From a virus (lineage: Duplodnaviria; Heunggongvirae; Uroviricota; Caudoviricetes), in IMG/VR virus record IMGVR_UViG_3300035698_013589, positions 52,033 through 116,032 of that record: a stretch of 64,000 nt of DNA; one strand, written 5' to 3'. The notes below the pieces were generated by a model. That model was not told where the DNA came from. It did not search any database and saw nothing but the letters and a program-made list of their open reading frames with translations. Shown here piece after piece: positions 4,130 through 58,034 of this stretch (position 1 is the stretch's first letter; every line of letters begins with the position of its first letter). The position numbers were made by a program, and so were the translations under genes.

Positions 4130-4639
4130 ATGGAGATAAGAATGAAAGGGAGTAGGGTATTCTTTTTTGCTATAATAGTTCTAGCATTCATGGGATTGTA
4201 TAGTGGTAGCGAGATGTATAAACATGATGCTGAGAATGGTATCAGTCGAGACATATATAATTTAACTGAATCTAAAATGGTATGGAACTCATCTATATTC
4301 CCTATGGAAAGTTATAATGCTTCTATTCATAATGATAGTAATACTATAATGTATATTAGATTAAATAACATAATATATAAGATAGGAGATGCCATGGGGT
4401 TTTCTTTGTTTGAAGGAACTAAAATCTTTATGGAGATTGGGTATAACACTCAAGGCAAATACAATCTTGGGTTCTTTTTAGTATTAATCAAATTAGTTTT
4501 TTGGGCTGTAATTATAGGTGCAATGTTTTATCCTGCAATGTTTATTGGAATGGCTTGTTATGAGTTATTTAAATGGACAAGAAAGTTTATAAAATCAAGA
4601 AACTCTAAAGGAGAAGAGAATCAAAATGAAGACAAATAA
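4130..4639 (+). CDS. membrane protein
   Basis: N-terminal signal/TM and C-terminal TM segments. Confidence 0.4.
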   Translation: MEIRMKGSRVFFFAIIVLAFMGLYSGSEMYKHDAENGISRDIYNLTESKMVWNSSIFPMESYNASIHNDSNTIMYIRLNNIIYKIGDAMGFSLFEGTKIFMEIGYNTQGKYNLGFFLVLIKLVFWAVIIGAMFYPAMFIGMACYELFKWTRKFIKSRNSKGEENQNEDK

Positions 4640-6404
4640 AGGGTCAGTCTATATCCCACAAATGGACAAAGAAGAAGTATTAATATACGACATTGAGACA
4701 GCTGTAGTTGGACCAAAACCTGATGCAACTAAAGATAGACTTAAACTATTTGGGTTCTATTCATACAAGATAGGAAAGTTTGGTATCATTCCATTCACAG
4801 ATAAAGCATCAATTCAGAAGTTAATTGACAAACATAAGTTTATGGTTGGTTTTAACAACGAACAATATGATGACCCAATTCTGAAGAGGGAAGGAATATC
4901 CTTAGAATACAAAAGGATTGTAGACCTAAGAAAAATATTAAAACTTAGAGCAGGTGGAATGATTACTAAGAAAGGAATGCTTGGTAATGTTCTAATGAAA
5001 TATTCTCTGGATTACATTACAAGATTCTTAGATATTGTTGATGAGAACTCAGCTAAAGATGAGATTGATTATAACATATTTAAAAAAGATAGTTGGACTA
5101 AAGAAGAAGTTGCAACTATGAGAAAATATACTCAAAGAGATATTGAAGTAACAAAGAAACTATTTGAATGGGTAGAAGATTATTTTATCAGTTTCAAAGA
5201 TTTTGTTCCAAAGAAAGACGTTGATGGTAAATATTATCTAACAGATACTATTGCTAAGTTTGCTTACAAAGCCATTTGCCATGCGCTTGGTTGGGAGCCT
5301 GTTTATGATAGTGAGGGTTTCCAAAACACTAATCCTGAAGATAGAATCTCTGGTGGTTATGTAGCTTATCCTGCAGGTGAAAAGTTTGAAGGGGACATCT
5401 ATTGTTTAGATTTCAATTGTTTTCCTCCAAATACTAAAATACGAATGGCTGGAAAAGGTGGAGCTGATGGCCACTACCATGATAAAAATATTCAGAATAT
5501 TAAACCTGGCGATACAATAATAAACCAAGATGGTGTGCAGGTAGTTGGTGGTGTGCAGACACAAAATTATACTGGAGATTTGATAGTTATAGAATTAGAA
5601 AATGGTAGACAAATTAAGTGTACGCCAGACCATAAATTCCCAATAATTAGAGATGGGAAAGAGATGGTTGTTGAAGCACAAAACATAAGTGATACAGATG
5701 ATATGTTAACAACTAATTCAAAACATGGTAAACTAAATGGACATCATAAAGGAAAGATTCTAAAGATGTGTGAAGTATGTGGTTCAGAACATTCTGTGTT
5801 CCCATCACATGAACATATTAAAACTTGTTCAACAGAGTGTGCAAATGTATTAAGAGAATTAAATAGTCCAAAAACAAATCTTGGAAAGACTAAATACGAT
5901 ACACCACATCTTATGAGAATGTCTGAAGCGAGAACTGGTGTGCCTAGAACAGATGAACATAAAAATATAATTAGTAATGCTACAAAAGAAGCTATGAAAG
6001 ATGTCAACATGTCTGAAGTGAATAAACAAAGAGATATGTCATTCATGCAAACATCTGAATGGAGATTAAAAGTCGCTCAGTCAAAAATGAATAGTGTGAA
6101 GGCAGGAAAATTTAGATATAAAGATATAAATTTCAGGAGTAATTGGGAAGTTATTGTTGCAAAAAACCTAGACAAGAATAACATAGAGTGGAAATACGAA
6201 CCACAAGTGTTTAAGTTAGATGACGAAACATTCTATTTGCCAGATTTCTATATTCCTAAGTTCGATAAGTGGGTAGAAGTAAAAGGTTATATGTATGACC
6301 ATAGTAGAATAAAAATAGAAAAGTTTATGGAAACACATGAAAATTTTATATTGGTTAATGATTTGAATAGTGTAAAAGACGAGGATGTAAAATGGTTAAG
6401 ATAA
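4626..6404 (+). CDS. polB: Family B DNA polymerase, N-terminal part: exonuclease domain plus motif A half (DFN), fused to intein N-terminal region and endonuclease domain
   Basis: Exo I YDIET, Exo II VGFNNEQYDDPIL, Exo III YTQRDI, then YCLDFN / CFPPNTK (intein block A) and TPDHKF (block B); AGGAG RBS. Confidence 0.85.
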   Translation: MKTNKGSVYIPQMDKEEVLIYDIETAVVGPKPDATKDRLKLFGFYSYKIGKFGIIPFTDKASIQKLIDKHKFMVGFNNEQYDDPILKREGISLEYKRIVDLRKILKLRAGGMITKKGMLGNVLMKYSLDYITRFLDIVDENSAKDEIDYNIFKKDSWTKEEVATMRKYTQRDIEVTKKLFEWVEDYFISFKDFVPKKDVDGKYYLTDTIAKFAYKAICHALGWEPVYDSEGFQNTNPEDRISGGYVAYPAGEKFEGDIYCLDFNCFPPNTKIRMAGKGGADGHYHDKNIQNIKPGDTIINQDGVQVVGGVQTQNYTGDLIVIELENGRQIKCTPDHKFPIIRDGKEMVVEAQNISDTDDMLTTNSKHGKLNGHHKGKILKMCEVCGSEHSVFPSHEHIKTCSTECANVLRELNSPKTNLGKTKYDTPHLMRMSEARTGVPRTDEHKNIISNATKEAMKDVNMSEVNKQRDMSFMQTSEWRLKVAQSKMNSVKAGKFRYKDINFRSNWEVIVAKNLDKNNIEWKYEPQVFKLDDETFYLPDFYIPKFDKWVEVKGYMYDHSRIKIEKFMETHENFILVNDLNSVKDEDVKWLR

Positions 6405-6505
6405 ATAAAATAACACGGGAACCATATAATGGATTAGTGTATGATTTATCTTTAAAGAATGTAGCATCCCCATATTTTTATGCTAATAGAATACTGACAC
6501 ACAAT
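5418..6505 (+). mobile_element. intein in polB motif A (Hint blocks A,B,F,G) carrying a non-LAGLIDADG endonuclease region (CxxC...HxH, two NUMOD3-like repeats, PD-(D/E)xK-like LPDFYIP...WVEVKG)
   Basis: insertion exactly between DFN and SLYP of polymerase motif A; N-terminal Cys, C-terminal HN followed by Ser; length 1088 nt is not a multiple of 3 (frame change near 6392-6404). Confidence 0.75.
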
Positions 6506-7771
6506 AGTCTTTATCCACACATAATGATTCAATGTAATCTTTATTCAAGAAATAAGAAGGTGGCAGATGGATGGCATGGAAGTGACATGTGGAAAGTTGA
6601 AGGGTTCTATAATGATGAAAAACTAAGCCCTGTTTGTAAACTTATGAGAGCATGGTATCATCTAAGATTAAAATATAAAAGAAAATTTGTTACTGGTGAA
6701 GGTAAAGTTGTCAAGATGCTTGATGAAAAGAAAGGAACATCAGCTATGGATTATGTTGGAAAAGAATATCATAGAGTTGTTCAAAATTCAGAAGGGCAGA
6801 TTAAACTTGAGCTTGCAATGATGACTGAAGAGTCAGCAAAGGAATATGTTGAACTTGCAAAAGAAGGTGTGGACAGAAGAGAATACACAATCAAGATTAT
6901 CATTAATACAATTTATGGTTTATTGAATAATGCATACTACAAACTTGTATATGATTTAATGGCTGGTGGAGATTGCACAAGAATAGGAAGACAATGGACT
7001 AAGTATGCTCGTAAGATATTCAAAGAAGCTGGTTATAAAATTGTATATACCGATACAGATTCATGGTATGTTATTGACCATTTGAATGATAAAAAGAAAC
7101 TGCTTGAAGTTAATAAGCAAGTGATTGATAAGATAAAAGCCACTGTTCCGTTTCCGCAATTAACCTTTGATGCAGGTATAGATGATGAGATTAAATACAT
7201 GTTCTTCTTTAAAGGAACAAAGAATGAGGAAAAAGAAACTGATAGTGAGATGGACTCAGAGGATTTCTTGAACAAACCATTAGGACTGATGAAGAAAAAC
7301 TATATCTATGTCACTAAAGAAAATAAGGTTAAGATAAAGAACTTAGGAATCAAGAAGAAAAATATAAGTGCTTTATCAAAAGAAATCTTTTGGAATCATT
7401 TAGTTCCTGTTATTAAATCAGAAGGGCGAGTTAAGTTTAGTGCTGTTGAGATTGAAAACCTTATGCGTAGATTGTTGAAAGATAACATTGAACTATCATA
7501 CATGAGAAAAGAAGTGTCTCCTATATCAGCATATTCTAAATCAATCAATGGCATCCAAGCACAAATATCTAAAGCATATGGACCAGGAATACATTTCCTT
7601 ATACCAAACAAAAGAAACATTGGTGTTGGGAAGAAAGTTAAATATTGTAATGTTGATGAGTTCCAGAAATATAAGATGGAGATTTCTGATATAGATTTCT
7701 CAAACTTCTGGAAAGAACTTAACTATTTTGTCAAAGCAAGGAAACAACCAAACTTATTTGATTGGAATTAA
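6392..7771 (+). CDS. polB: Family B DNA polymerase, C-terminal part: 38-aa intein C-terminal segment (blocks F,G ...ILTHN) followed by SLYPHIM (motif A), KIIINTIYG (motif B), YTDTDS (motif C)
   Basis: starts 13 nt before stop of previous ORF in another frame; GAGGA RBS-like sequence upstream of ATG. Confidence 0.85.
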   Translation: MVKINKITREPYNGLVYDLSLKNVASPYFYANRILTHNSLYPHIMIQCNLYSRNKKVADGWHGSDMWKVEGFYNDEKLSPVCKLMRAWYHLRLKYKRKFVTGEGKVVKMLDEKKGTSAMDYVGKEYHRVVQNSEGQIKLELAMMTEESAKEYVELAKEGVDRREYTIKIIINTIYGLLNNAYYKLVYDLMAGGDCTRIGRQWTKYARKIFKEAGYKIVYTDTDSWYVIDHLNDKKKLLEVNKQVIDKIKATVPFPQLTFDAGIDDEIKYMFFFKGTKNEEKETDSEMDSEDFLNKPLGLMKKNYIYVTKENKVKIKNLGIKKKNISALSKEIFWNHLVPVIKSEGRVKFSAVEIENLMRRLLKDNIELSYMRKEVSPISAYSKSINGIQAQISKAYGPGIHFLIPNKRNIGVGKKVKYCNVDEFQKYKMEISDIDFSNFWKELNYFVKARKQPNLFDWN

Positions 7772-9075: not shown

Positions 9076-9444
9076 ATGAGCAAGGATTCAGGCGTAGATA
9101 TACTTTTAGAAGACTTAGATGAGAATGATATTGGTTCTATTTTAACAGTATACAATGATGTTAATCTTGTTAAGAAAGCAATTGAGGAACAAATCAACAT
9201 GCTTAGAGATAAGTTAAAAGTTCAATTGAAAGAACGAAAATGGGATTCATACATGGATGAGGGTAGTAAAATTTCTGTGTCGATAACCACACAACAACGG
9301 GAAAGTGTAAACAAGAAAGCACTGAAAATGTTATTGAACGATGAGCAATATGCTCAGGTAATAACAAAAACATCCTTTGAAAAGATGTTGATAATTAACC
9401 CAAAAGATAGGGAGAGGTTGAAACAATATGGCAACAAAAAATAA
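9076..9444 (+). CDS. hypothetical protein
   Basis: ORF downstream of promoter copy, GGGTG RBS. Confidence 0.45.
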   Translation: MSKDSGVDILLEDLDENDIGSILTVYNDVNLVKKAIEEQINMLRDKLKVQLKERKWDSYMDEGSKISVSITTQQRESVNKKALKMLLNDEQYAQVITKTSFEKMLIINPKDRERLKQYGNKK

Positions 9445-10402
9445 CTTCTTTTCATCCTTGTTTGGTGGAAAAGAAAAGAAATTACTTAAACAATTAAAAA
9501 AATTAAAGAAAGAGCACGACGCTCTTGATACAAAATTATTAAGTGGGAAAATAACAAAAAAGGAACTCGATAAGTATTATGAGTTAAAGGAGGATATTAC
9601 CAAAATGGCTAAGAAATTTATGTTAAAAGATGGAAAACTTGTTCTAAACACAGAGCAAAACAAAGGTGAAACAATGGACACAAAAATAGATGAAAGTAAA
9701 GTAAGTGCGCCAGCTCCTGTGCCACAACAAGCACCACAAGAGATGCCGCTACCACCAGCACCTGAACCTGTTCAACAACAAATACATGAACCTGTTCAAG
9801 AACCTGCGCCAATGAGAACAAGTCCTGCATATGTAGAAGCACAAATGAGAGCTGATGAAGATGCACAACAGCAAGCTATGATGCAAGCTCAACAACAAGC
9901 TCAAGCACAACAGCAAGCTATGGCTCAAGCACAACAGCAAGCTCAGATGCAAGCACAACAACAAGCTCAGATGCAAGCACAGGCACAACAACAAGCTCAG
10001 ATGCAAGCACAACAGGAAGCTCAGATGCAAGCACAACAACAAGCTCAGATGCAAGCACAACAGCAAGCTCAGATGCAAGCACAACAGGAAGCTCAGTATA
10101 GAGCACAACAAGAACAGGAACAACTTGAACTTCAAGCACAGCAAGAAGCACAAGCAAGAGTTGAACAGAGCAGTCAAATAAAATATGCTACTCAACAACA
10201 AACACCACCACAACAACCTGAAGGAAGAGCTTTAGTATATTTATCTGTTACTGATTTACCAGAACTTAATTTAGGAATAAACAAAGAAGCAATACCTGTT
10301 TTTGTAGATAAAATAAACAAAGCAATGCAGGATGCAACACCATTTCAGTTTGGTCCATACACAGTTAATGGAGCAAAGATATTAATGTACAGATTTGAAT
10401 AG
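9428..10402 (+). CDS. Q/A-rich low-complexity repeat protein
   Basis: tandem ~27-30 nt repeats (caacaagctcagatgcaagcacaa) at ~9890-10090 encode QQQAQMQAQ units. Confidence 0.5.
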   Translation: MATKNNFFSSLFGGKEKKLLKQLKKLKKEHDALDTKLLSGKITKKELDKYYELKEDITKMAKKFMLKDGKLVLNTEQNKGETMDTKIDESKVSAPAPVPQQAPQEMPLPPAPEPVQQQIHEPVQEPAPMRTSPAYVEAQMRADEDAQQQAMMQAQQQAQAQQQAMAQAQQQAQMQAQQQAQMQAQAQQQAQMQAQQEAQMQAQQQAQMQAQQQAQMQAQQEAQYRAQQEQEQLELQAQQEAQARVEQSSQIKYATQQQTPPQQPEGRALVYLSVTDLPELNLGINKEAIPVFVDKINKAMQDATPFQFGPYTVNGAKILMYRFE

Positions 10403-12865: not shown

Positions 12866-13449
12866 GGCTGATGACCCTGAGTATACTCTAGTATATATTT
12901 GAAAAAAGAAAGAAAACCACAATACAAAAGAAATATATATATAAACGAGGTTCACTTTCCTCATCATAACAAGAGTACCTTACCATGCAGCGAAGTCGGC
13001 ATGGTTAGTATAGTAGGTGGAAATTTAATTTTCATAAGGCATACAAAACTGTGGATTTATGTGGTTTCACATATTAAGCATTGTATAACCTTGATACCAA
13101 AATTAACTTTTTGACGAAAAAATTTGAGCTAACCGAAGCCAAATAATTATTTCCCACCATTCTCAATAGTTTTCAATCCATCAGGATTTTCTCCAGGGAA
13201 AAAAACTTTTTTTTCTAAATAAAGGCCCTTTTCAAAAGACTCATGGTAATCTAATCCTCACTGTTTTTTGGGGGGTACGGTAGGCCCTTTCTGTGTTACT
13301 TGATTCAACTTAAATTTTTAATTTTGAAATCTGCAGCAGCACTTTCCTGGATAATGTATATACAATAAAACAATAGTTATAGAATATAACGTATAGTATA
13401 TATTTATTATTGTGTTACTTATCTTGGGCTGATTTGTGGCTGTGTTACC

Positions 13450-13492
13450 TGTGTTACCGCAGTAACACAAGTTACCTGCAAAAGCAGGTAAC
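13450..13492. repeat. twin perfect palindromes TGTGTTAC-cgca-GTAACACA and GTTACCTGC-aaaa-GCAGGTAAC
   Basis: read directly from sequence; share GTAACAC core with the cassette hairpins. Confidence 0.85.
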
Positions 13493-13499
13493 ACAGGGT

Positions 13500-13790
13500 G
13501 AACTTTGAAATTTGAAACTTCGTATTCAAATACAATATTGAATTTGGACTTTAAATTTAGAATTGATTTTTGGGGTTGAATTTTCAATAAAAGAATTGAA
13601 TTTTGAAAGATTGAATATTCAAAATTAGCTTCAATTTTGAATTTTAAAAAATTGGCTTTTGAAAATTGAATTTTTTTAGCTTTAAATTTTGAAATTGAAA
13701 ACCTTTTCAAAATTGAATCAGATTTCAATTTTAAAGGGGTTTAAATGGCTCAAAATTGAATCTTTTTTAATTTCTGATATTTGATATATC
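13500..13790. repeat. degenerate iteron field (TTGAATTTTGAAA / CAAAATTGAAT units, >15 copies, both orientations)
   Basis: visible tandem/inverted AT-rich repeats. Confidence 0.6.
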
Positions 13791-13839
13791 AAAATTTAAT
13801 CATGTAAGATTTAACATAAAAAGAGGAGTTAAAAACCAA

Positions 13840-14100
13840 AGTATCAAAGTAACACACTTGAAATGATGATACTTTGATACTTTGATATTTTTTACTACTT
13901 CTAAGTGTAGCTAAAATATTAAATAAACCACTCACTTTTTATATATTTGAAAGTGGGGTTTTATCGTGGTGAAATGGCAAAAATTAACAGCGAATTTTTT
14001 TTAAATCCTATTAGAAAACTATTAAAAAAATAGACTAATTTTAACTAAAAAATTTAGTATCATTTAGTATCATTTTTGGCGAAATGATACTAAACCTTTA
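13840..14100. repeat. short direct repeats (gatactttgata x2; tttagtatcat x2 plus inverted atgatactaaa)
   Basis: read from sequence. Confidence 0.5.
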
Positions 14101-14116
14101 TAAAGGGCTTTTATAA

Positions 14117-14238
14117 GTGTGTTACTTTTTTCTGACTTTTGAATTTTGAACATTAAAACGAAACATTTATATAGTAGTTAGTATATCCTAATTAATATAA
14201 AAGGTTATCATTAGCCATAAATTAATGATGGGGCAAAA
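14117..14238 (+). promoter_or_regulatory. leader module copy 1 (GTGTTACTTTT half-site, BRE/TATA 14166-14173, IR, conserved 5'UTR)
   Basis: near-identical to six downstream copies. Confidence 0.6.
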
Positions 14239-14550
14239 ATGGAAAAACAGAACAAATTTAGTTTATATATTGGTTTATTAAAATCAGACATGGAAACGGC
14301 TTTAAATTCTGAAAGTGTTTTAAATGTTGTATCAGACAATTTTTTAAAATTGGGAATCATGGGTTTTAATTCTGAAAATATAAAAGGTTTTTGGAACGGC
14401 AAACCTGAAGGGGCTTTAAAAATTTCTTTTATTAATACTTTTGATATTCATTTTAAAGATTTTTTAAAAGTGGTTGAATCTTTAAAAATTCAATTAGAGC
14501 AAGAATCTATTTTAATAGAGCAAGAGCAAGTTTTATATAATTTTGCTTAA
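14239..14550 (+). CDS. cassette gene 1, hypothetical small protein
   Basis: starts at ATGGAAA of conserved leader; ends at oligo-T. Confidence 0.6.
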   Translation: MEKQNKFSLYIGLLKSDMETALNSESVLNVVSDNFLKLGIMGFNSENIKGFWNGKPEGALKISFINTFDIHFKDFLKVVESLKIQLEQESILIEQEQVLYNFA

Positions 14551-14685
14551 ATTTTTTTTTCTCATGAAGCGTGTTACTTTCCTTGAATCCATGCAACAAA
14601 GTAACACAGATATATTTATATAGTAGTTAGTATATCCTAATTACATAAGGTTATCATTAACCATAAAATAATGATGGGGCAAAAA
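14551..14685 (+). promoter_or_regulatory. leader module copy 2: oligo-T, hairpin GTGTTACTTT...AAAGTAACAC, BRE/TATA, IR ATCATTAA-n7-TTAATGAT, GGGG RBS
   Basis: sequence identity with other copies. Confidence 0.7.
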
Positions 14686-15072
14686 ATGGAAACAATAAAA
14701 GAAAATAGCGAATATAAAATATTTGCAGTTAGTAGCTTTATGGCACATACAACAGCACAAATTTTTAAAGTTGTGGGTTTTCAGGAAAGTAAACCAATAG
14801 TAGTTTTTAAAAATCATAAAGGAAATTATGAAAGAAAAAAAAGACTTTTGGACATGGACAAAAAAGATATTATTATAATTCCTTTAAATGATTGTATTTT
14901 GAAAGCAGACAGCGAAACAGGGAATTTTTTTGGTAATGCGTGTTTTAATTTCTTAAATTCTGAATCACAAATTATAGAGCAATTAAAACTTAATTTAATT
15001 CAGGGTTTTGAATCAAGATGGAAATTTAACAGCGTGGACGAAAACCGAAATTATACAGAACTTTCTATTTAA
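14686..15072 (+). CDS. cassette gene 2, hypothetical protein (true start ATGGAAAC; track start MMGQK is leader read-through)
   Basis: conserved leader analysis; in copy 1 and copy 3 the upstream ATGATGGGG is out of frame or hits a stop. Confidence 0.6.
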   Translation: METIKENSEYKIFAVSSFMAHTTAQIFKVVGFQESKPIVVFKNHKGNYERKKRLLDMDKKDIIIIPLNDCILKADSETGNFFGNACFNFLNSESQIIEQLKLNLIQGFESRWKFNSVDENRNYTELSI

Positions 15073-15208
15073 TTTTTTTTTTTCGTTTCAGGCGTGTTAC
15101 TTCTCCTGAATCAAGCAAAAAGTAACACGGATAAGTTTATATAGTAGTTAGTATATCCTAATTATAAGAAAAGGTTATCATTAACCATAAATTAATGATG
15201 GGGTAAAA
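15073..15208 (+). promoter_or_regulatory. leader module copy 3
   Basis: hairpin GTGTTACTT...AAAGTAACAC 15094-15128, TATA 15136-15143. Confidence 0.7.
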
Positions 15209-15460
15209 ATGGAAATATGCGAAACGGCAACCGATAAAAAAGGCAGTTATTCAGAATTTGACAATAATGAAGAAAGGGTTTATATTTTTAATAAAAGTGA
15301 TGAATGTATAAACTATTTTGAAGCTTACGACCTTGAAGAATTGGCTTTAAATAATCACAAAAAAAGCGAACACTTATATTAATTTTTTTTTCTTGAATCA
15401 TGTGTTACTTTGTAAACGAATCAGGATAAAAGTAACACGGAAACATTTATATAGTAGTTA
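15209..15460 (+). CDS. cassette gene 3 (not in supplied track); ORF reads through oligo-T and next leader, possibly decayed
   Basis: ATGGAAATATGC start after leader (leader ATGATGGGG hits TAA here); manual translation gives 83 codons ending TAG at 15458. Confidence 0.3.
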
Positions 15461-15516
15461 GTATATCCTAATTACATAAGGTTATCATTAACCATAAATT
15501 AATGATGGGGCAGAAC
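15383..15516 (+). promoter_or_regulatory. leader module copy 4
   Basis: hairpin 15401-15437, TATA ~15445. Confidence 0.7.
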
Positions 15517-15888
15517 ATGAAAAAATCAGAACTTAAAACAACAACTTTAAAAAAGTTAATGACAGCACACAGAATAAACCAACAATGGCACAATAAAAAT
15601 AAATCAGGTGGCAATTTTGGTTTAAATTTCTATTTTGGCGAAACTTTTGAAAGGGGAAGAGATAAAAGTTTAAGTGGCTATTATAATGTAGATGGCGATT
15701 TATACAGCTTATCTTATGGTAATGCTTACGGCGTGGGGCAGAAAATACCAAAAGAAATTCTAAAAGATATTAACCTATTAGCTAAATATTTATTACACTT
15801 AAATAATAATGGTGATTGGTTGAAATTTCTCCAAGATAATAATTTATTTGAAGAGTATCAAGAAAGACAGGGGCTTAAAAATGAATAA
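15517..15888 (+). CDS. cassette gene 4, hypothetical protein
   Basis: start ATGAAAAAATCA following conserved GGGGCAGAAC. Confidence 0.55.
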   Translation: MKKSELKTTTLKKLMTAHRINQQWHNKNKSGGNFGLNFYFGETFERGRDKSLSGYYNVDGDLYSLSYGNAYGVGQKIPKEILKDINLLAKYLLHLNNNGDWLKFLQDNNLFEEYQERQGLKNE

Positions 15889-15902
15889 AAGAAATTTAGA
15901 AT

Positions 15903-16214
15903 ATGAGGAGAAATTTAAAAAATATCTTTTTAAATTTGATTTGCAGACACATAAAGAAATCTGTAAAAATATCAATGTTAGACATAATCAGGGTGGTAAA
16001 ATTGATTAGTAAACAATATATCAAAGAATTAGAATTTAAAGACATTTTTGAATTTTATAATTATGTTGTGGAATCAAAAATAAATGGCAATTACAGACAG
16101 ACAAAAGACTTTATTAACAAAATGAATCAAGAACAAAAACGGCAGTTTTTAGGGTTTTTAGTTTGTGAGGGGCATAGCGAACACATAGCAGAATTTAACA
16201 AAATGTTAATTTAG
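15903..16214 (+). CDS. hypothetical protein
   Basis: ORF in track, no own leader. Confidence 0.35.
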   Translation: MRRNLKNIFLNLICRHIKKSVKISMLDIIRVVKLISKQYIKELEFKDIFEFYNYVVESKINGNYRQTKDFINKMNQEQKRQFLGFLVCEGHSEHIAEFNKMLI

Positions 16215-16222
16215 GGGGCAAA

Positions 16223-16498
16223 ATGACAGATAAAAAAGAAGAGCCAAAACCTGAATATATCACAATTGTTGATATTAGAAAAAGCAATTTAACCAATAAA
16301 ATCTTTATTGTATCACAAGATTATATAATGCAAACTGATTTTTGTAATGGTGGATTTTATCAGGAACAAAGCACAGAATTAGAATTTGTAAACAGGAAAG
16401 ACCTTTTATTTACTATTCAGAAAAAAAAGGAACTTTCAAACAACACTATAAAAGAAGTGGGGCAGTTAGAAAAACTTTTAACAGGGGGCAAAAAATGA
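16223..16498 (+). CDS. hypothetical protein
   Basis: GGGGGCAAAATG RBS/start identical in style to leader RBS. Confidence 0.5.
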   Translation: MTDKKEEPKPEYITIVDIRKSNLTNKIFIVSQDYIMQTDFCNGGFYQEQSTELEFVNRKDLLFTIQKKKELSNNTIKEVGQLEKLLTGGKK

Positions 16499-16668
16499 AA
16501 ACATTTAGAGTAGAAATTTTTGAATATGCAACAGGAAAAACAGAAGCCGTTATTGGAACAGGATTAAACGAAGATAGGGCAGAAAAAAGAGCCATGACAG
16601 GTTTAAGCCGTTGTAATTCAGATTATGGAACAAGAAGCATAGACGAAAAAACAGGCGAAGTTTTGTAA
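16495..16668 (+). CDS. small hypothetical protein (57 aa, not in track)
   Basis: ACAGGGGGCAAAAAATG RBS/start; ATGA overlap with previous stop; ends at oligo-T. Confidence 0.4.
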   Translation: MKTFRVEIFEYATGKTEAVIGTGLNEDRAEKRAMTGLSRCNSDYGTRSIDEKTGEVL

Positions 16669-16802
16669 TTTTTTTTCTCAATAATGTGTTACTTTTTTTG
16701 TGAATCAGGATAAAAGTAACACGGAAACATTTATATATTAGTTAGTATATCCTAATTATAAGAAATGGTTATCATTAACCACAAATAATGATGGGGCATA
16801 AA
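16669..16802 (+). promoter_or_regulatory. leader module copy 5
   Basis: hairpin 16686-16722, TATA 16731-16738. Confidence 0.7.
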
Positions 16803-17180
16803 ATGGAAACTAAAAAGTTAATAGTAGGGCTTAATAAGTTGTTTAAGCATAAAGTAGATGATGGTGAAGAGATACCACAAAAAGAATTAAAGGGCTATTT
16901 AGAGCAGTCTAATGTTATTATGGTAATACCAAAAATTAGAGAACTAAAAAATTATTTAGTTGAAAATTTTGATGTTTCGGAATCAAAAATTCCTGAATTA
17001 AATTATAGTTCTGAAAATAGTGGAACTTCTAAATATTCATGTGATTTTATGAAAATGATTTTGGAACTATTAAAACACACAGAATTAGAAAGTTTTAAAC
17101 TTTCAGTTGCAAAAGATTACCCAATGACAATAGAAACTAAAGAGTATAAAGTTATTATTGCACCAAGAGTAGATAATTAA
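16803..17180 (+). CDS. cassette gene 5, hypothetical protein
   Basis: starts ATGGAAACT after leader. Confidence 0.6.
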   Translation: METKKLIVGLNKLFKHKVDDGEEIPQKELKGYLEQSNVIMVIPKIRELKNYLVENFDVSESKIPELNYSSENSGTSKYSCDFMKMILELLKHTELESFKLSVAKDYPMTIETKEYKVIIAPRVDN

Positions 17181-17314
17181 TTAATTTTTTTTCTCAACAA
17201 TGTGTTACTTTTCTTGAATCAGGATAAAAGTAACACGGAAACATTTATATAGTAGTTAGTATATCCTAATTACATAAGGTTATCATTAACCATAAATTAA
17301 TGATGGGGCAAAAA
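17181..17314 (+). promoter_or_regulatory. leader module copy 6
   Basis: hairpin 17202-17236. Confidence 0.7.
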
Positions 17315-17992
17315 ATGGAAACAATAAATGTTTATGAAAACGGCGTATTAATTGAATATGCAGAATGGGAAAAATTAGAGGAATCAGAACAAACCAATTT
17401 CTTAACTACTGATGACTTTGCAGATTGTGATTTTTTAAAAATTAAGGGCGAAATTGCAGTAAATTTTATTAATCATGATGACAAAATATTTTATATAATC
17501 TTTCCTGAATTTGAAGAGCATGAGGACATTATTAAATTTATTCTATTAAGATTTTTTTCAGATGATTTTAAGAAATCATTTACTGAATTGGATACATGGC
17601 ATACAGACCAAAAAGAAAAACAACAATATAAAGCTATATTAGAGACCAATATAGTCTTATTTTATAGGGGTGGCGTGGGTTATTCTTATGGGGTTCATAG
17701 ATTAGAGCCATTAAAATTAAATGAAGCTATTGGCTATTTAAACGGCTTTTGTGGGTATATTGATGTTGAGAATGATGAAGATTATAAAGAATCTGAAATT
17801 ATTGAGACAGCAAACAAAAAACTTTTTTCTGATTTTGAGTTAGATTATACATATATAGGGCATGAGACTATTAATAAATGCAAAAATTGTAATAGTTTTT
17901 TGCATAAAGAAATCCATGAGACAAAAGATAAATACCCTTTTGTTTGCTTAAATTGTGATGAAAATATGTTTGAATTTGAGGTTGAAAAATGA
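17315..17992 (+). CDS. cassette gene 6, hypothetical protein with C-terminal zinc ribbon (CKNC...CLNC)
   Basis: starts ATGGAAACA after leader. Confidence 0.6.
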   Translation: METINVYENGVLIEYAEWEKLEESEQTNFLTTDDFADCDFLKIKGEIAVNFINHDDKIFYIIFPEFEEHEDIIKFILLRFFSDDFKKSFTELDTWHTDQKEKQQYKAILETNIVLFYRGGVGYSYGVHRLEPLKLNEAIGYLNGFCGYIDVENDEDYKESEIIETANKKLFSDFELDYTYIGHETINKCKNCNSFLHKEIHETKDKYPFVCLNCDENMFEFEVEK

Positions 17993-18108
17993 AAATTAAA
18001 ACAAAATGTAAAAGTTGTGAAAGTGGTTTTTCAAAAGAAAAATTTTTATTCAATTGTTGTCCTATTTGTAAAGGAAAAAATTTAATAGAGGTTGAAAATG
18101 AAAACTGA
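17989..18108 (+). CDS. 39-aa zinc-ribbon mini-protein (CKSC...CPIC)
   Basis: ATGA overlap with upstream stop; four Cys in two CxxC pairs. Confidence 0.35.
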   Translation: MKIKTKCKSCESGFSKEKFLFNCCPICKGKNLIEVENEN

Positions 18109-18448
18109 ACAAATGCAAAACTTATTAATTGGGGCTTTTGAGGGTGGTTCTAATTATTGGTATCAAATAAAAGAATTTATCAACAGAAAACCAAAACAGG
18201 AAACTCCTGAATATTTGCCGTCCTATATAACTACTCCTTTTAGTAAAGATGGGGCTTTAATAATTTCAGATATTGAGGGAGATGAAGAGGACAAAACTTT
18301 AAATTTGAAAGCGTTAAAATCAGGGGCAAAAATCATGCATGAAAAATATCCTAAACATTATGCAGATGTTTTAAATGAAGATGATGATTGTATAACAGCA
18401 GATGTATATTTACAATGTTGTCTTTTTGGAGAAATTATTTTTGGTTAA
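18098..18448 (+). CDS. hypothetical protein (track start 18092 is a TTG; ATG at 18098 preferred)
   Basis: ORF ends at oligo-T before leader copy 7. Confidence 0.5.
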   Translation: MKTEQMQNLLIGAFEGGSNYWYQIKEFINRKPKQETPEYLPSYITTPFSKDGALIISDIEGDEEDKTLNLKALKSGAKIMHEKYPKHYADVLNEDDDCITADVYLQCCLFGEIIFG

Positions 18449-18540
18449 TTTTTTTTTCTTTAATCATGTGTTACTTTTCTTTGAATCAGGATAAAAAAGT
18501 AACACGGAAACATTTATATATTAGTTAGTATATCCTAATT
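18449..18540 (+). promoter_or_regulatory. leader module copy 7 (hairpin 18468-18505, TATA 18513-18520) followed by a second tandem promoter copy (TATA 18588-18595)
   Basis: sequence identity. Confidence 0.65.
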
Positions 18541-18671
18541 ATATGAATGGGATAACAAATAAAAAAATGGGATACACAAACGAAACATTTATATATTAGT
18601 TAGTATATCCTAATTACAACAAAGAAAAAAGTGTTTTTGGACACTCAAAAAATCCAAAGGTGGAAAATAAA

Positions 18672-19512: not shown

Positions 19513-19892
19513 AAATTGAAAAAGAAATGTTTAAGGATAGCCATTTTTTGATGGCTCAGGAAAAATATCAGATAGCAAAACACTTTCAAAGATTTGTGAA
19601 GAATGGATTTAAACCTAATGATTTTTTAAAAAGGGTTTATGAACATTTACATTTACATTGTGGATTTATTGCACACTATAATATCAATGGTTTTTATCAG
19701 ACATATTTTAATGGTAGTAAATCAGATTTGAGGACATTTGCAGAGCATTTTGTGAATCCTGAAAAACTCATGCCATTTGGAGATACATATAATAATTATG
19801 CAGTAAGTGGCGAATATGAGGACATTAACAAAGTTATAGCAGATATTTTGCTTGAAAACAATATATTGGAGATGATTCAAAATGAAAATTGA
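19509..19892 (+). CDS. hypothetical protein
   Basis: ORF in track. Confidence 0.4.
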   Translation: MKIEKEMFKDSHFLMAQEKYQIAKHFQRFVKNGFKPNDFLKRVYEHLHLHCGFIAHYNINGFYQTYFNGSKSDLRTFAEHFVNPEKLMPFGDTYNNYAVSGEYEDINKVIADILLENNILEMIQNEN

Positions 19893-20275
19893 TATTGAAA
19901 AGGCAAAAATCCATGCAAAAATAATGGAACATTTACAAAAATATTTCAAAGATTATGGAATGTTATCCAAAGATGATTTTTTGGGAATGATTATTCAAAG
20001 TGGTAAAGAAATCAAAGAGGAAAAGGACAATGAATAAACGAAAAGAAGAACGGATACAGGGGATTATAGACGACCTTTTAGAAGTGTTATCTTATGAAGA
20101 TTTGGAACAAAAACTCAAAGAAATTGCAGAGCATGAAGCAATTTCATTAAGAAGTTTAGAGGGCGAAAATGAAGATTGAAGAACTTGAAGAAAGGGAATT
20201 TATGGTAAATTCCAAAGGAAAAGTTTTGATAATTCAGGTAATGAATACAGGAACGAAAACGGAGAAATTGAGTAT

Positions 20276-20518
20276 TTGGATTCAGGAATGAAATTTAAAA
20301 TATTCTGTTATCAAAGAAGTTGTTATTTTGGAGATGATTCAGTTTTTGATTCATTGGAAGATATTAAAGAGCAATTAATATCTTATCACAGCAACGATTG
20401 GGAAGAGGACATAAAAGTATTGGAAAACATGGCTTTACATACACTTTTAGAATTTTTTGAGTGGGCTATACATGACGAATCAGAAAATCATATTGTTTTG
20501 ATTGGTGGAGATGAATAA
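20276..20518 (+). CDS. hypothetical acidic protein
   Basis: ORF in track. Confidence 0.35.
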   Translation: MDSGMKFKIFCYQRSCYFGDDSVFDSLEDIKEQLISYHSNDWEEDIKVLENMALHTLLEFFEWAIHDESENHIVLIGGDE

Positions 20519-39560: not shown

Positions 39561-39799
39561 CATTTTTCACAAAAAAATATAAAAAAAGTAACATGATAAA
39601 AGTATTTTTTGCAAAACTTAAAGCAAGAGATGAACAAGAAGCAAAATATATATTGCGTGAAAAACATCCTTTTTGTAAAATATTAACATACAGATTTGAA
39701 AAAGATTTTAAATTTGTGCCTAAAGAAAAAAGAGATTATACAAAGAGAATTATTGAAGTTGTGTTTGTGAAAAATATAAAAGATATATGGAACGATTAA
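39557..39799 (+). CDS. hypothetical basic protein
   Basis: ORF in track. Confidence 0.35.
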   Translation: MTFFTKKYKKSNMIKVFFAKLKARDEQEAKYILREKHPFCKILTYRFEKDFKFVPKEKRDYTKRIIEVVFVKNIKDIWND

Positions 39800-41139
39800 A
39801 AATGAAATTACCTGAACAAATAACAAACATCATGGCTCATATAATTAGTCATGGATACAAGGCGTATGTAGTTGGTGGTGCAATAAGAGATTTCAAGATG
39901 AATTTTGAACCACACGATTATGATATTTTCACAAATGCCAGAGGAGAAGAATTGCTGCAACTTTTTCCAGATGGTCATGTTATTGGAAATGAAGAACGAC
40001 AGAACAAGATTTTAACCGTAATGGTTGATGATGTAGAGGTATCTACTTTCAGGCTTAACGGCGACAGAACTGAAATTGGTAACACGCTTGAAGACCATCA
40101 AAAGACTTGTGATTTCACAATGAACTCTATTGCTTGTGATATTAATGGAACTATTGATTTAGAGAATCCTTACAATGAACAAGGAGTTAAAGACATTGCA
40201 GGTAACATGCTAAGGTTTGTTGGTGAAGCTAAAGATAGGATTGAAGAAGACCAATTGAGGATATTGCGAGGACTTAGATTCTTGTTAAAATATAACATGA
40301 TGTGTGATAAAAACACAATGAACTTATTAGAACATCATGAAGTAGATGTTCCTAAAGAACGAATCAGAGAAGAACTTTTGAAGATATTTTCATTAAATCT
40401 TTATAGTGGTTTTTTAAGATTCATATTAAGATTTATGCCTAAATGTATGGCTCATTCACAGAATTTTTCATCAGGCGGAAAATGGCATGATGAAATGCCT
40501 TATGCACATTTTGAAAGTTCTTTTTTAGAGGTATCTAAGATAACATCAAACCCATTATTAAGAATGGCAGTGTTATTACATGATTCAGGAAAAGGTATCA
40601 CAAGAACTGAAGATGACGGCGAAGTTCATTTTTATGAGCATCAAAAAGTTGGTGCTGATGAAGTTAGAGCATGGATGAATGAACATAAATTTAGTAATGA
40701 TGATATTAATTATGTAACTACATTTATCTATAATCATATGCATGGATATGCAGAGAAAGAACCAAGTAAGAAATCATACATCAAATTGTTTGTTGCTCTT
40801 GATGGTGCAGGTATTTCGATAGAAGAATATGTAATGCATCTTTATGGAGATAATCAAGGTAATCATGCTAAACCAAGAATCAAGTTTGGTGATTTTGTTA
40901 AAGATAGTTTATACATCAAAAAGTATTATGAACTTAAATTCACAAATGAACCTTTCAAAATACATGACATGGAAATCTCTGGAAAAGATTTGATTGAAAA
41001 ACATGGAATGAAAGCAGGTAAACAACTTGGTGGCGTATTGAAAGAGATTTTTAATTTGATACTTGAAGGCGATTTGAAGAACGAAAAAGCTGAACTTAAT
41101 AATTATGTGAAGACAAAGGTGATTCCAAATGGAAAGTGA
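39787..41139 (+). CDS. cca: class II tRNA nucleotidyltransferase (CCA-adding enzyme) with C-terminal HD domain
   Basis: GGAIRD head motif, DYDIFT, TFRLNGDR, ERIREE; HD motif LLHDSGKG. Confidence 0.8.
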   Translation: MERLKMKLPEQITNIMAHIISHGYKAYVVGGAIRDFKMNFEPHDYDIFTNARGEELLQLFPDGHVIGNEERQNKILTVMVDDVEVSTFRLNGDRTEIGNTLEDHQKTCDFTMNSIACDINGTIDLENPYNEQGVKDIAGNMLRFVGEAKDRIEEDQLRILRGLRFLLKYNMMCDKNTMNLLEHHEVDVPKERIREELLKIFSLNLYSGFLRFILRFMPKCMAHSQNFSSGGKWHDEMPYAHFESSFLEVSKITSNPLLRMAVLLHDSGKGITRTEDDGEVHFYEHQKVGADEVRAWMNEHKFSNDDINYVTTFIYNHMHGYAEKEPSKKSYIKLFVALDGAGISIEEYVMHLYGDNQGNHAKPRIKFGDFVKDSLYIKKYYELKFTNEPFKIHDMEISGKDLIEKHGMKAGKQLGGVLKEIFNLILEGDLKNEKAELNNYVKTKVIPNGK

Positions 41140-57764: not shown

Positions 57765-58034
57765 ATGAACATCTTAGAAGAAGCTAACAAAATCACGTCA
57801 GATGATAGGCAAAAGGCTTACGGCAAGCCTAAAGAGAACTTTAATCACATTGCTAAGATTGCATCGTCAATACTTGGTAAGGAAATCACTGCAAAAGAGA
57901 TTGTAATGATTATGTTTGCTACAAAATTGAGCAGGGAAATGCATTGTTCAAAACATGATAATCATGTTGATTTAGCAGGATACTCTTGGGTTTTGAATCA
58001 AGTTGTTGAAGAAGAAATACCAAAAACAGAGTAA
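57765..58034 (+). CDS. hypothetical protein
   Basis: ORF in track. Confidence 0.4.
   Translation: MNILEEANKITSDDRQKAYGKPKENFNHIAKIASSILGKEITAKEIVMIMFATKLSREMHCSKHDNHVDLAGYSWVLNQVVEEEIPKTE

What the first reader, a model, noticed from the sequence alone, without database searches (positions are those of the whole stretch)
12866..14238. 1.4-kb iteron- and palindrome-rich non-coding region (putative origin of replication)
This is the longest ORF-free stretch in the window. It contains:
- a field of more than 15 degenerate TTGAATTTTGAAA-type repeats in both orientations at 13500-13790
- direct repeats gatactttgata and tttagtatcat
- the twin GTAACAC palindromes
- a G-run, TTTTTTGGGGGG, next to AGGCCCTTT direct repeats at 13215-13290

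It sits downstream of the replication-gene block (PCNA-like, RFC, PolB, RuvC). These are hallmarks of an origin or partition locus. Alternatively it may be the boundary between conserved and hypervariable genome modules.
Basis: inference. Interest (0 to 1): 0.55.

Follow-up and report, generated by a model that had tools for sequence, protein, structure and literature searches.

The report
Conserved non-coding control hub in virus
This 1.4-kb gene-free stretch of an uncultured virus is a real, evolutionarily conserved block of protein-binding repeats and promoter-like boxes that sits where the conserved DNA-replication genes end and a fast-changing island of small genes begins; it may also be the replication origin, but nothing I could compute shows that.

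Summary
Homologous 1.1-1.6 kb non-coding regions occur at the same position in at least five related metagenomic viruses, with the same ordered set of elements:
- promoter-like palindromes;
- a TTTTCYCCWGGGAAAA palindrome;
- a cluster of GTGTTAC stem-loops;
- a single-copy array of about 20 TTSAA sites;
- inverted arrays of the 8-mer TGATACTT.

More distant relatives keep the TGTTAC boxes and the TTSAA array. Some carry an integrase or a TnpB-like gene at this spot.

The last 120 nt is the first of nine or more repeated cassettes (T-run, GTGTTAC stem-loop, 36-nt promoter box, 5'-UTR hairpin). These cassettes punctuate a roughly 7-kb hypervariable island, which recalls the PeSL cassettes of T4-type phages. 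The first gene after the region has a SAM-lyase-like fold, which would fit an early anti-restriction gene.

Best reading: a transcription-control hub at the boundary between the conserved and hypervariable modules.

The origin idea remains open. For it: unique repeat arrays and unstable, AT-rich DNA. Against it: no GC-skew inflection, no DnaA boxes, and no initiator gene among the neighbouring genes I scanned.

The parts
12880..12897 (+). B1: the palindrome AGTATACTCTAGTATATA (family consensus TATATACTnnAGTATATA). It is promoter-like and is the first element after the upstream gene.
   Evidence: It is conserved in all five aligned relatives, with 1-3 tandem copies in L015, L017 and L009. It shares the TTATATA...TAGTATAT layout of the repeated promoter box. 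Apart from a weaker copy at 13385, it is unique in the window.
13074..13089 (+). B2: conserved block, TTAAGCATTGTATAAC in the window (family consensus ATAAGTATTGTATAAC).
   Evidence: Seen in alignment A2. No other match with two or fewer mismatches occurs in the window.
13141..13152 (+). B3: conserved AAATAATTATTT block.
   Evidence: Columns 424-436 of alignment A2 are nearly invariant in the five relatives.
13187..13214 (+). B4: the palindrome TTTTCTCCAGGGAAAAAAA, followed by a C and a T8 run.
   Evidence: It is conserved in all five relatives as TTTTCYCCWGGGnAAAAA. It is the only exact copy in the 64 kb.
13264..13290 (+).
   Evidence: Present. GGGGTAC or its complement GTACCCC also lies near the GTGTTAC boxes in L009 and L015, but the AGGCCCTTT repeat is not conserved.
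13385..13402 (+). B1': a second B1-type promoter-like box, directly upstream of the GTGTTAC cluster.
   Evidence: A B1-type match lies at the same relative position in L014, L015, L017 and L009. It also falls within the second least stable 60-nt window of the 64 kb, which starts at 13351.
13293..13299 (+). Solitary GTGTTAC box.
13412..13496 (.). Cluster of five GTGTTAC/GTAACAC boxes that form nested or alternative stem-loops.
   Evidence: DNA fold -17.3 kcal/mol, z = -2.4. A perfect 9-bp stem lies at 13471-13492. Equivalent clusters occur in L009, L014, L015 and L017. The TGTTAC core is also kept in L001, L012 and L003.
13505..13760 (.). Array of 20 TTSAA sites with unit about AAWTTTGAAATTT. 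Spacings are 6-8 or 11-13 nt and both orientations occur.
   Evidence: It is the only such array in the window. Six relatives have a similarly enriched array at the syntenic position.
13831..13890 (.). B8: inverted arrays of 8-mers, AAAAACCA AAGTATCA AAGTAACA, a 12-nt spacer, then TGATACTT TGATACTT TGATATTT.
   Evidence: Inverted repeat I4 has 24-nt arms that are 88% complementary. It is among the best-conserved blocks of alignment A2: TGATACTTTGrTACTT is invariant in the five relatives. It is unique in the window.
13891..14118 (+). Variable insert with a TATA-like box (13938), a 19-codon mini-ORF (13968-14027), a T8 run (13995-14002) and AGTATCA direct and inverted repeats (14052-14099).
   Evidence: An insert is present at this position in the window, L014 and L017 and absent in L009 and L015. 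In the window it is bracketed by a perfect 14-nt inverted pair, AAAGTAACACACTT at 13846-13859 and AAGTGTGTTACTTT at 14115-14128 (I23).
14119..14238 (+). First copy of the repeated intergenic cassette. It holds a GTGTTAC half-site (14119-14125), TTTGAATTTTGAAC (14138-14151), the promoter box GAAACATTTATATAGTAGTTAGTATATCCTAATTA (14160-14194) and a 5'-UTR hairpin ATCATTA/TAATGAT (14207-14229). The ATG follows at 14239.
   Evidence: The 27-nt box occurs nine times with at most one mismatch, against 0 expected. The cassettes align. GAAA-N1-3-TTTAWATA occurs 11 times on the + strand and never on the - strand.
14239..14550 (+). First gene after the region, 103 aa, with a SAM-lyase-like fold. Context only, not part of the non-coding region.
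   Evidence: It has 16 homologues. The structural model has pLDDT 92.8. The best PDB matches are phage SAM lyases, with E = 5e-6 and TM 0.67-0.69.
14551..18660 (+). Downstream cassette copies (T-run, GTGTTAC...GTAACAC stem-loop, promoter box, 5'-UTR hairpin) between small ORFs. Context only.

Best explanation
The region is a conserved, composite cis-regulatory hub. It separates the conserved replication and recombination gene block from a hypervariable island of small genes that are probably early host-takeover or anti-defence genes.

Proposed working, with shown and inferred steps marked:
1. Transcription from the upstream block ends here, at T-runs and at the clustered GTGTTAC stem-loops. 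This is inferred.
2. New rightward transcription starts at promoter-like boxes B1 (12880), B1' (13385) and the 36-nt box at 14160-14194. The last of these drives the SAM-lyase-like first gene. The boxes are shown to be conserved and repeated. Their promoter activity is inferred.
3. The GTGTTAC boxes occur only here and in the cassettes of the downstream island. I infer that they are the recognition element of one factor that co-regulates this island. They could act as an operator on DNA or as a stem-loop in RNA.
4. Two arrays lie between B1' and the first gene's promoter: about 20 TTSAA sites and the inverted TGATACTT 8-mers. Both are single-copy. I infer that they are a high-density binding platform for an unidentified DNA-binding protein. 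That nucleoprotein complex could gate firing of the early promoters, and it could in addition serve as the replication origin.
5. The near-identical cassettes that begin at the 3' end of the region provide homology for gene shuffling, as PeSLs do in T4-type phages.
For: Conservation:
- The ordered blocks B1, B2, B3, B4, B1', the GTGTTAC cluster, the TTSAA array and B8, followed by a promoter and the first ORF, are conserved in five relatives whose flanking proteins are only 27-75% identical to the window's.
- There is no conserved coding potential in any frame.
- There is no Rfam or tRNA match.

Link to the downstream cassettes:
- The region shares the GTGTTAC boxes and the 27-nt promoter box with the downstream cassettes.
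- In the window and in four relatives, stem-loop plus box pairs occur only in or after this region. The box alone also occurs elsewhere.
- The box motif is strictly on the + strand and intergenic.

Context:
- The hypervariable island starts right after the region.
- The first gene has a phage SAM-lyase-like fold. From my own knowledge, the T3 SAM-degrading enzyme is the first early gene of that phage.
- PeSL cassettes (stem-loop, early promoter, Shine-Dalgarno sequence) in hyperplastic regions are documented in PMC2839356 and PMC4122927.
Against: - No transcript data exist. The box is not a sigma-70 consensus, and the sigma-70 scan gave 17 sites against 17 expected, so promoter identity is inferred from repetition and position only.
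- No binding protein has been identified for any motif.
- Arrays of about 20 sites are unusual for pure transcription control. From my own knowledge they are more typical of origins or centromeres.
- B1, B2, B4, B8 and the TTSAA array are single-copy. That suits a unique cis site such as an origin, a packaging site or a terminus at least as well as it suits a regulatory site.
Confidence: 0.55

Rival explanations
1. Replication origin. In this reading the TTSAA array and/or the inverted 8-mer arrays are initiator-binding repeats. The neighbouring very AT-rich DNA is the unwinding element. Initiation is possibly primed or activated by transcription from B1', as at T7 or T4 origins. This reading does not exclude the hub reading.
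For: - The arrays and palindromes are unique and dense.
- They are kept at the same position next to the replication genes in relatives down to 51% PolB identity.
- The region holds the 2nd and 4th least stable 60-nt windows of the 64 kb.
- Promoter-like boxes lie here with no ORF downstream.
- A comparable multi-repeat non-coding region is the proven origin of the PLE satellite (PMC7145576).
Against: - GC skew shows no inflection.
- There are no DnaA boxes in the region.
- The repeats have a core of about 5-7 bp, in mixed orientation and with irregular spacing. They are not 17-22-bp phased iterons.
- No Rep, Orc or initiator-like domain was found in the flanking genes scanned.
- The low duplex stability is shared by the whole 13.3-18.6 kb stretch.
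Confidence: 0.3
2. Physical genome end or packaging site. In this reading the region holds the boundary of a terminal repeat, or a terminase recognition site, just upstream of the first-injected early genes. Phages T5 and SPO1 and the Twort-like phages are arranged this way.
For: - The region lies immediately upstream of an island of small ORFan genes with repeated strong promoter boxes, and of a SAM-lyase-like first gene.
- It contains unique palindromes.
- From my own knowledge, early host-takeover genes sit in or next to the terminal repeats of T5, SPO1 and phage K.
Against: - The region is internal in the 64-kb window and in the 82.6-kb, 127-kb and 183-kb contigs of relatives.
- No duplicated copy of the region occurs in the window.
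- No terminase gene was seen among the neighbouring genes I scanned.
- There are no read-level data.
Confidence: 0.1
3. Integration module (attP) or a landing pad for mobile elements.
For: - Relatives L001 and L003 carry a tyrosine recombinase on the minus strand inside the syntenic non-coding region (Pfam Phage_integrase, 1.3e-16).
- L010 carries a minus-strand gene at the same spot that I read as TnpB-like by eye; this was not tested.
Against: - The window has no integrase or integrase remnant here.
- The five closest relatives have none either.
- There is no tRNA-like attachment core.
- The conserved blocks are present whether or not an integrase is present.
Confidence: 0.05
4. Plasmid-type centromere: arrays of short repeats bound by a partition adaptor protein. 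Examples from my own knowledge are the omega heptads of pSM19035 and parC of plasmid R1.
For: Short sites at roughly 7-nt spacing in both orientations, and 8-mer arrays in inverted blocks, resemble known centromere arrays. The resemblance rests on my own knowledge.
Against: - No ParA, ParB or ribbon-helix-helix gene was detected among the genes scanned.
- Relatives carry integrases rather than plasmid-maintenance genes.
- Nothing indicates a plasmid lifestyle.
Confidence: 0.04

Closest known systems
PeSL cassettes (promoter-early stem-loops) of the hyperplastic regions of T4-type phages (PMC2839356, PMC4122927)
   Same: - Both are repeated intergenic cassettes with a stem-loop, then a promoter, then the ribosome-binding region and start codon of a small ORFan gene.
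- Both are concentrated in a hypervariable island that lies between conserved core blocks.
- Both provide near-identical copies that could mediate modular shuffling.
- Here, the window, L014 and L017 carry an insert that L009 and L015 lack. In the window it is bracketed by GTAACAC and GTGTTAC.
   Different: - The promoter box is not a sigma-70 consensus (GAAACATTTATATAGTAGTTAGTATATCC).
- The stem has a sequence-conserved TGTTAC core rather than poly-G/poly-C.
- A T-run precedes the stem rather than following it.
- Only the last 120 nt of the finding is such a cassette. The 1.2 kb upstream, with its unique arrays, has no counterpart in the PeSL papers I read.
Multi-repeat non-coding origin regions of phages and satellites, for example the PLE non-coding region with repeats 1-4 (PMC7145576). 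From my own knowledge, also the lambda and P4 iteron origins, the noncoding AT-rich origins of lactococcal phages, T4 oriE, and the T7 primary origin (promoters plus an AT-rich stretch).
   Same: Both are long AT-rich intergenic regions with several families of direct and inverted repeats. The region here lies next to replication genes, and in some relatives next to an integrase. It has promoter-like boxes with no ORF downstream.
   Different: - No cognate initiator gene has been identified.
- The repeat unit is much shorter and irregularly spaced.
- There are no host-factor boxes.
- There is no skew or depth evidence.
- In the PLE only one of the four repeat types proved to be the iteron, so repeat richness alone does not identify an origin.
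Archaeal ORB and mini-ORB origins (PMC1904270, PMC3089459)
   Same: - Multiple short AT-rich dyads carry TTTCA/TGAAA-type half-sites. The S. solfataricus mini-ORB is GATTTTCAGATGAAACG.
- B4 (CTCCAGGGAAA) loosely resembles the Pyrococcus mini-ORB TTCCAGTGGAA.
- The virus has an archaeal-like RFC small subunit and BRE/TATA-like promoter boxes.
   Different: - B4 is single-copy and is not arranged as an inverted pair around an unwinding element.
- The TTSAA sites are mostly direct or in mixed orientation.
- No orc1/cdc6 gene was seen.
- The host domain is unresolved. The clamp loader is equally similar to those of T4-superfamily phages of bacteria, and the CCA-adding enzyme and Ro60 look bacterial.

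Membership tests
Iteron-type (Rep-dependent) replication origin | Three or more direct repeats of about 17-22 bp, spaced in helical phase | tested here: not met
   The repeat core is TTSAA within a unit of about 13 nt. Spacings are 6-8 or 11-13 nt and orientation is mixed. The dominant AA/TT period is 13.25 nt, not 10-11 nt.
Iteron-type (Rep-dependent) replication origin | Adjacent AT-rich DNA-unwinding element | tested here: met
   GC is 0.22 in the array. The region contains the 2nd and 4th least stable 60-nt windows of the 64 kb. This is not exclusive, because the following 5 kb are similarly AT-rich.
Iteron-type (Rep-dependent) replication origin | Cognate initiator gene in cis or adjacent | tested here: inconclusive
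   No Rep, DnaA, Orc or primase-initiator domain was found in the ORFs scanned with Pfam and PHROGs on both sides. Most small ORFs have no annotation at all.
Iteron-type (Rep-dependent) replication origin | Host-factor sites (DnaA boxes) | tested here: not met
   No TTATCCACA match with one or fewer mismatches lies within 12866-14238. The window total is 24 against 26.7 expected.
Iteron-type (Rep-dependent) replication origin | Strand-composition switch or marker-frequency peak at the site | tested here: not met
   GC skew is positive on both sides and the cumulative skew rises monotonically through the region. This is a weak test, because genes on both flanks are on the + strand. Read depth cannot be tested here.
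Transcription-primed origin (T7 primary origin, T4 oriF/oriG type) | A promoter followed by an AT-rich unwinding region with no ORF | tested here: inconclusive
   Conserved promoter-like boxes B1 and B1' are followed by ORF-free, AT-rich DNA. Promoter activity and R-loop formation cannot be tested with these tools.
PeSL-type regulatory cassette | A stem-loop plus a promoter plus a ribosome-binding site, repeated between small ORFan genes | tested here: met
   There are nine copies of the 27-nt box. Six of them have a GTGTTAC...GTAACAC stem-loop upstream and a conserved 5'-UTR downstream. The first copy is at 14119-14238.
PeSL-type regulatory cassette | Located in a hyperplastic region between conserved core blocks | tested here: met
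   Comparing the window with L014, all 13 upstream ORFs are shared. Between 14.5 and 21.3 kb only 2 of about 17 are shared. Collinearity resumes after that.
PeSL-type regulatory cassette | Sigma-70 consensus early promoter | tested here: not met
   The box has no TTGACA-17-TATAAT match. The sigma-70 scan found no excess of sites (17 found, 17.0 expected).
Archaeal ORB/mini-ORB origin | Several ORB dyads (TTCC...GGAA) in inverted orientation around an unwinding element, next to orc1/cdc6 | tested here: not met
   Only one B4 element is present. The TTSAA sites are mostly direct or in mixed orientation. No orc1/cdc6 gene was found among the neighbours scanned. The ORB sequences used for comparison are from PMC1904270 and PMC3089459.
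attP / integration module | An integrase gene adjacent to the site | tested here: not met
   There is no integrase or remnant in the window (tblastn, best E = 2.2). An integrase is present at this site in L001 and L003.
attP / integration module | A core identical to a host attB, often the 3' end of a tRNA | tested here: inconclusive
   No tRNA or tmRNA-like sequence lies in the region or in its syntenic counterparts. The host is unknown, so attB cannot be searched.
Plasmid-type centromere (parS, parC, omega heptads) | A partition ATPase and adaptor gene next to the repeat array | tested here: inconclusive
   None was detected among the ORFs scanned. Many ORFs are unannotated and the window does not cover the whole genome.
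Terminal-repeat boundary or packaging site | Read-start pile-up or a two-fold coverage step; a duplicated terminal sequence | not testable with these tools
   No reads are available. No second copy of the region occurs in the window. The region is internal in the long contigs of relatives.

The most novel reading that the evidence does not exclude
The single-copy TTSAA array and the inverted 8-mer arrays would be the replication origin of a previously undescribed clade of 80-180-kb uncultured viruses. These viruses have a split PolB and an RFC-type replisome. The origin would be activated by transcription from the adjacent conserved promoter boxes.

The promoter boxes look like archaeal BRE/TATA elements (GAAAC-A-TTTATATA, followed upstream by oligo-T terminators). 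If they really are, the clade would infect archaea, as the magroviruses are thought to do. This would then be the first defined origin and promoter architecture for such viruses.
Probability: 0.15. Interest if true: 0.65.

Novelty: new member of a known kind. Interest (0 to 1): 0.4.

Why it matters
If the reading is right, this region defines three things for an uncultured virus lineage that has no isolate relatives: its promoter box, a candidate operator or stem-loop motif (TGTTAC), and the control point of its early or anti-defence gene island. Neither the region's DNA nor its PolB matched any of the 50,697 phage records searched.

The ordered, conserved cis-elements give concrete targets. 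They can be used to map transcription starts, genome termini and replication peaks in metagenomic, virome and metatranscriptomic reads. The TTSAA array can be used as bait to fish out the protein that binds it.

The finding also extends the idea of PeSL-type shuffling cassettes beyond T4-type phages with sigma-70 promoters.

Tried and rejected
- **Known RNA genes.** Rfam at gathering and at E <= 10 thresholds, and ARAGORN, on the region and on five relatives found nothing credible. Single-sequence RNA folds of 12895-13300 are not unusually stable (z = -0.9 on the + strand and -1.8 on the - strand).
- **Hidden or unusual gene.** A six-frame comparison of the five homologous regions gave only short matches that follow the nucleotide-conserved blocks on both strands. 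The 136-aa minus-strand ORF is therefore rejected.
- **Integrase remnant in the window.** None was found.
- **Sigma-70 promoters and intrinsic terminators.** There is no excess over shuffles.
- **DnaA boxes.** None lies in the region.
- **Phased A-tract bending.** The dominant AA/TT period is about 13 nt, not 10-11 nt.
- **GC-skew inflection.** None is present.
- **Close relatives by DNA.** There was no blastn hit in the phage collection, and no exact copy of the promoter box in IMG/VR.
- **Host inference.**
  - The MAG bins that hold related PolB genes are scattered across bacteria and archaea.
  - The cluster names gave only one mis-binned 'Pacearchaeota' label.
  - The clamp loader is equally close to archaeal RFC small subunits and to T4-superfamily phage loaders.
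  - The host domain is left unresolved.
- **ORB-like reading of B4 and the TTSAA sites.** The resemblance is loose and the arrangement is wrong.
- **G-run and AGGCCCTTT repeats as functional elements.** They are not conserved in relatives.
Full report
**Observation**

The stretch 12866-14238 lies between the stop of a 358-aa ORF and the ATG of a 103-aa ORF. It is the longest stretch of the window without an ATG-ORF of at least 70 aa: 1271 nt, against 718 nt for the next longest.
- The field at 13505-13760 holds 20 TTGAA/TTCAA pentamers. The window average is about 2.3 per 300 nt. Dinucleotide-preserving shuffles of the field itself give 5.3 +/- 1.9, with a maximum of 12 in 500. The unit consensus is about AAWTTTGAAATTT. 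Spacings are 6-8 or 11-13 nt and orientation is mixed, so these are not classical phased iterons.
- TGATACTT occurs 3.1 times and ATTTAGTATC 2.4 times as tandem repeats.
- GTGTTAC occurs 25 times in the window against 4.9 expected, and 8 copies lie in the region.
- The G-run and the AGGCCCTTT copies exist but are not conserved in relatives.

**What the GTGTTAC palindromes and the 3' end really are**

Outside the region, GTGTTAC occurs as six inverted pairs (GTGTTAC, 21-24 nt, GTAACAC). Each pair sits in a short spacer between small + strand ORFs at 14.5-18.5 kb.
- Each pair is preceded by a stop codon and a T7-T11 run.
- Each is followed by an invariant box, GAAACATTTATATAGTAGTTAGTATATCCTAATTA, and most by a conserved 5'-UTR hairpin before the ATG.
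- The 27-nt core of the box occurs nine times with at most one mismatch, against 0 expected. Degenerate copies occur further downstream.
- GAAA-N1-3-TTTAWATA occurs 11 times on the + strand and never on the - strand.

The last 120 nt of the finding (14119-14238) is the first copy of this cassette.

**The virus**

The window has low GC (about 0.25-0.36), and its genes are on the + strand up to about 63 kb.
- Upstream of the region lie an RFC-like clamp loader, a PolB interrupted by an intein/endonuclease segment, and a Holliday-junction resolvase.
- Neither the region's DNA nor the PolB matches any record of the phage collection.
- The clamp loader is as close to archaeal RFC small subunits (2e-43) as to clamp loaders of T4-superfamily phages of bacteria (2e-42).
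- MAG bins that hold related PolB genes are taxonomically scattered.
- The promoter box looks like an archaeal BRE/TATA element, and the T-runs look like archaeal terminators. GC content and the split PolB recall the magroviruses (PMC10768690).
- On the other hand, the class II-type CCA-adding enzyme and the Ro60 protein look bacterial.

I leave the host domain open.

**Relatives**

Through PolB homologues and homologues of the 103-aa first gene I obtained contigs of related viruses. Five of them have a 1.1-1.6 kb non-coding region at the same place: L009, L014, L015, L017 and L016 (L016 and L017 share an identical first-gene protein). Alignment of four of them with the window (A2) and motif mapping in all five show the same ordered elements. 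L016 was mapped only, not aligned. Coordinates are for the window.
- B1: palindrome TATATACTnnAGTATATA at 12880-12897, with 1-3 tandem copies in relatives.
- B2: ATAAGTATTGTATAAC at 13074-13089.
- B3: AAATAATTATTT at 13141-13152.
- B4: palindrome TTTTCYCCWGGGAAAAA followed by T-runs, at 13187-13214.
- B1': a second B1-type box at 13385-13402.
- The GTGTTAC cluster at 13412-13496.
- The TTSAA array.
- B8: inverted arrays of 8-mers (AAAGTATC AAAGTAAC, about 12 nt, TGATACTT TGATACTT) at 13831-13890. This is among the best-conserved blocks.
- A promoter box and the first ORF.

B1, B2, B4, B8 and the TTSAA array are single-copy in the 64 kb, apart from the weaker B1-type copy at 13385. More distant relatives (L001, L012; PolB 51-54% identical) keep TGTTAC-core palindromes and an enriched TTSAA array at the syntenic site; in L003 (PolB 46%) the TGTTAC boxes are kept but TTSAA is not clearly enriched. 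The flanks of the TGTTAC core differ between lineages, and sometimes change on both arms together. Loop lengths range from 9 to 47 nt.

There is no conserved coding potential and no Rfam or tRNA match. The region is therefore functional non-coding DNA under selection. It is not a chance low-complexity patch.

**Boundary of a hypervariable island**

All 13 ORFs between 4.6 and 12.9 kb have collinear homologues in L014. Between 14.5 and 21.3 kb only 2 of about 17 ORFs are shared, and collinearity resumes from 21.3 kb.
- In the window and four relatives, stem-loop plus box pairs occur only within or after the non-coding region. The box alone also occurs elsewhere.
- The window, L014 and L017 carry an extra 250-300 nt between B8 and the first gene that L009 and L015 lack. 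In the window this insert is bracketed by a perfect 14-nt inverted pair that contains GTAACAC and GTGTTAC (I23).
- L001 and L003 carry a tyrosine recombinase inside the syntenic region. L010 carries a minus-strand gene there that I read as TnpB-like by eye; this was not tested.

This is the behaviour described for the PeSL cassettes of T4-type phages, which combine a stem-loop, an early promoter and a Shine-Dalgarno sequence and mediate modular shuffling in hyperplastic regions (PMC2839356, PMC4122927). The promoter here, however, is not a sigma-70 consensus.

**First gene**

The 103-aa protein has 16 homologues. It models with pLDDT 92.8. Its best solved-structure matches are phage SAM lyases, with Foldseek E = 5e-6 and TM 0.67-0.69. 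PII-like folds rank next. From my own knowledge, the SAM-degrading enzyme of phage T3 is its first early gene and acts against restriction. This fits, but does not prove, an early anti-defence role for the island.

**Origin hypothesis**

For:
- The arrays are unique and dense, and their position is conserved next to the replication genes.
- The DNA is very AT-rich. The region holds the 2nd and 4th least stable 60-nt windows of the 64 kb.
- Promoter-like boxes lie here with no ORF behind them.
- A multi-repeat non-coding region is the proven origin of the PLE satellite, although only one of its four repeat types is the iteron (PMC7145576).

Against:
- There is no GC-skew inflection. This is a weak test, because transcription runs in the same direction on both sides.
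- There are no DnaA boxes.
- No initiator-like gene was found among the neighbours scanned.
- The geometry of the repeats is irregular.
- The low stability extends over the following 5 kb.
- The comparison with archaeal ORB and mini-ORB elements (PMC1904270, PMC3089459) gave only a loose resemblance and the wrong arrangement.

**Verdict**

The best-supported description is a conserved composite control hub at the junction of the conserved replication block and a hypervariable, cassette-punctuated gene island. It contains promoter-like boxes, the first members of the TGTTAC stem-loop/operator family, and two single-copy binding arrays for an unknown protein. I give this reading a confidence of 0.55.

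Whether the arrays are also the replication origin (0.3, not exclusive of the hub reading), a genome end or packaging site (0.1), an integration site or a centromere (about 0.05 each) cannot be decided without read-level or experimental data. The kind of element is known. The lineage, the motifs and the non-sigma-70 cassette are new. Interest is moderate.

Noticed in passing
window 58003-59691 and 60109-60179: A Ro60/TROVE protein (Pfam TROVE 1.8e-31, plus the Ro60 vWA domain) is followed about 420 nt later by the window's only tRNA call. That call is a tRNA-Thr scoring barely above Rfam threshold (30 bits against a cut-off of 29). It could be a Y-RNA-like tRNA mimic rather than a true tRNA. 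Relatives L009 and L015 encode RtcB, and the window encodes a CCA-adding enzyme (39787-41139). Together these suggest an RNA-repair module.
   Followed up: no
window 14239-14550: The first gene after the region has a high-confidence model (pLDDT 92.8). Its best PDB matches are phage SAM lyases, followed by PII-like folds. It is a candidate anti-restriction gene.
   Followed up: partly
window 4626-7771; L009 10001-12061; L014 638-3835: PolB is split in the window. A 592-aa ORF carries the N-terminal part plus intein-splicing and endonuclease matches, and it overlaps a 459-aa C-terminal ORF. In L009, PolB is one uninterrupted 686-aa ORF. In L014 it is one 1065-aa ORF. The insertion is therefore variable within the clade.
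   Followed up: no
L001 16145-17284 (-); L003 about 19860-20480 (-); L010 15235-16014 (-): Relatives carry a tyrosine recombinase (L001, L003) or a minus-strand gene that I read as TnpB-like by eye (L010). In each case the gene sits at the intergenic site syntenic to the finding. The site appears to be a hotspot for mobile or integration genes.
   Followed up: partly
window 14160-58083 (13 sites: 14160, 14609, 15130, 15440, 16724, 17238, 18507, 18582, 23931, 38676, 43352, 52851, 58039): The virus-wide promoter-like box, (A)CGAAAC-A-TTTAWATA followed after 8-10 nt by TATAYYTAAT, occurs on the + strand only. Together with T7-T11 runs right after stop codons and GGTG-type ribosome-binding sites, it looks like an archaeal BRE/TATA element with oligo-T terminators. 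The host domain is unresolved.
   Followed up: partly
window 9863-10111: A 24-nt tandem repeat of about 9.8 copies, encoding a Gln/Ala-rich stretch, lies inside the 324-aa ORF 9428-10402. The length of this ORF varies among relatives (251-336 aa).
   Followed up: no
L012 20125-20240: In the 183-kb relative, a 26-30-nt box, CATATAGGTTAGGATATATATATTGGAGA, occurs three times in tandem just upstream of its first small gene. It is a diverged counterpart of the window's promoter box.
   Followed up: no
window 63001-64000: GC skew turns negative, and a minus-strand ORF (63472-63930) appears at the right edge of the window. This may be a switch in transcription direction.
   Followed up: no
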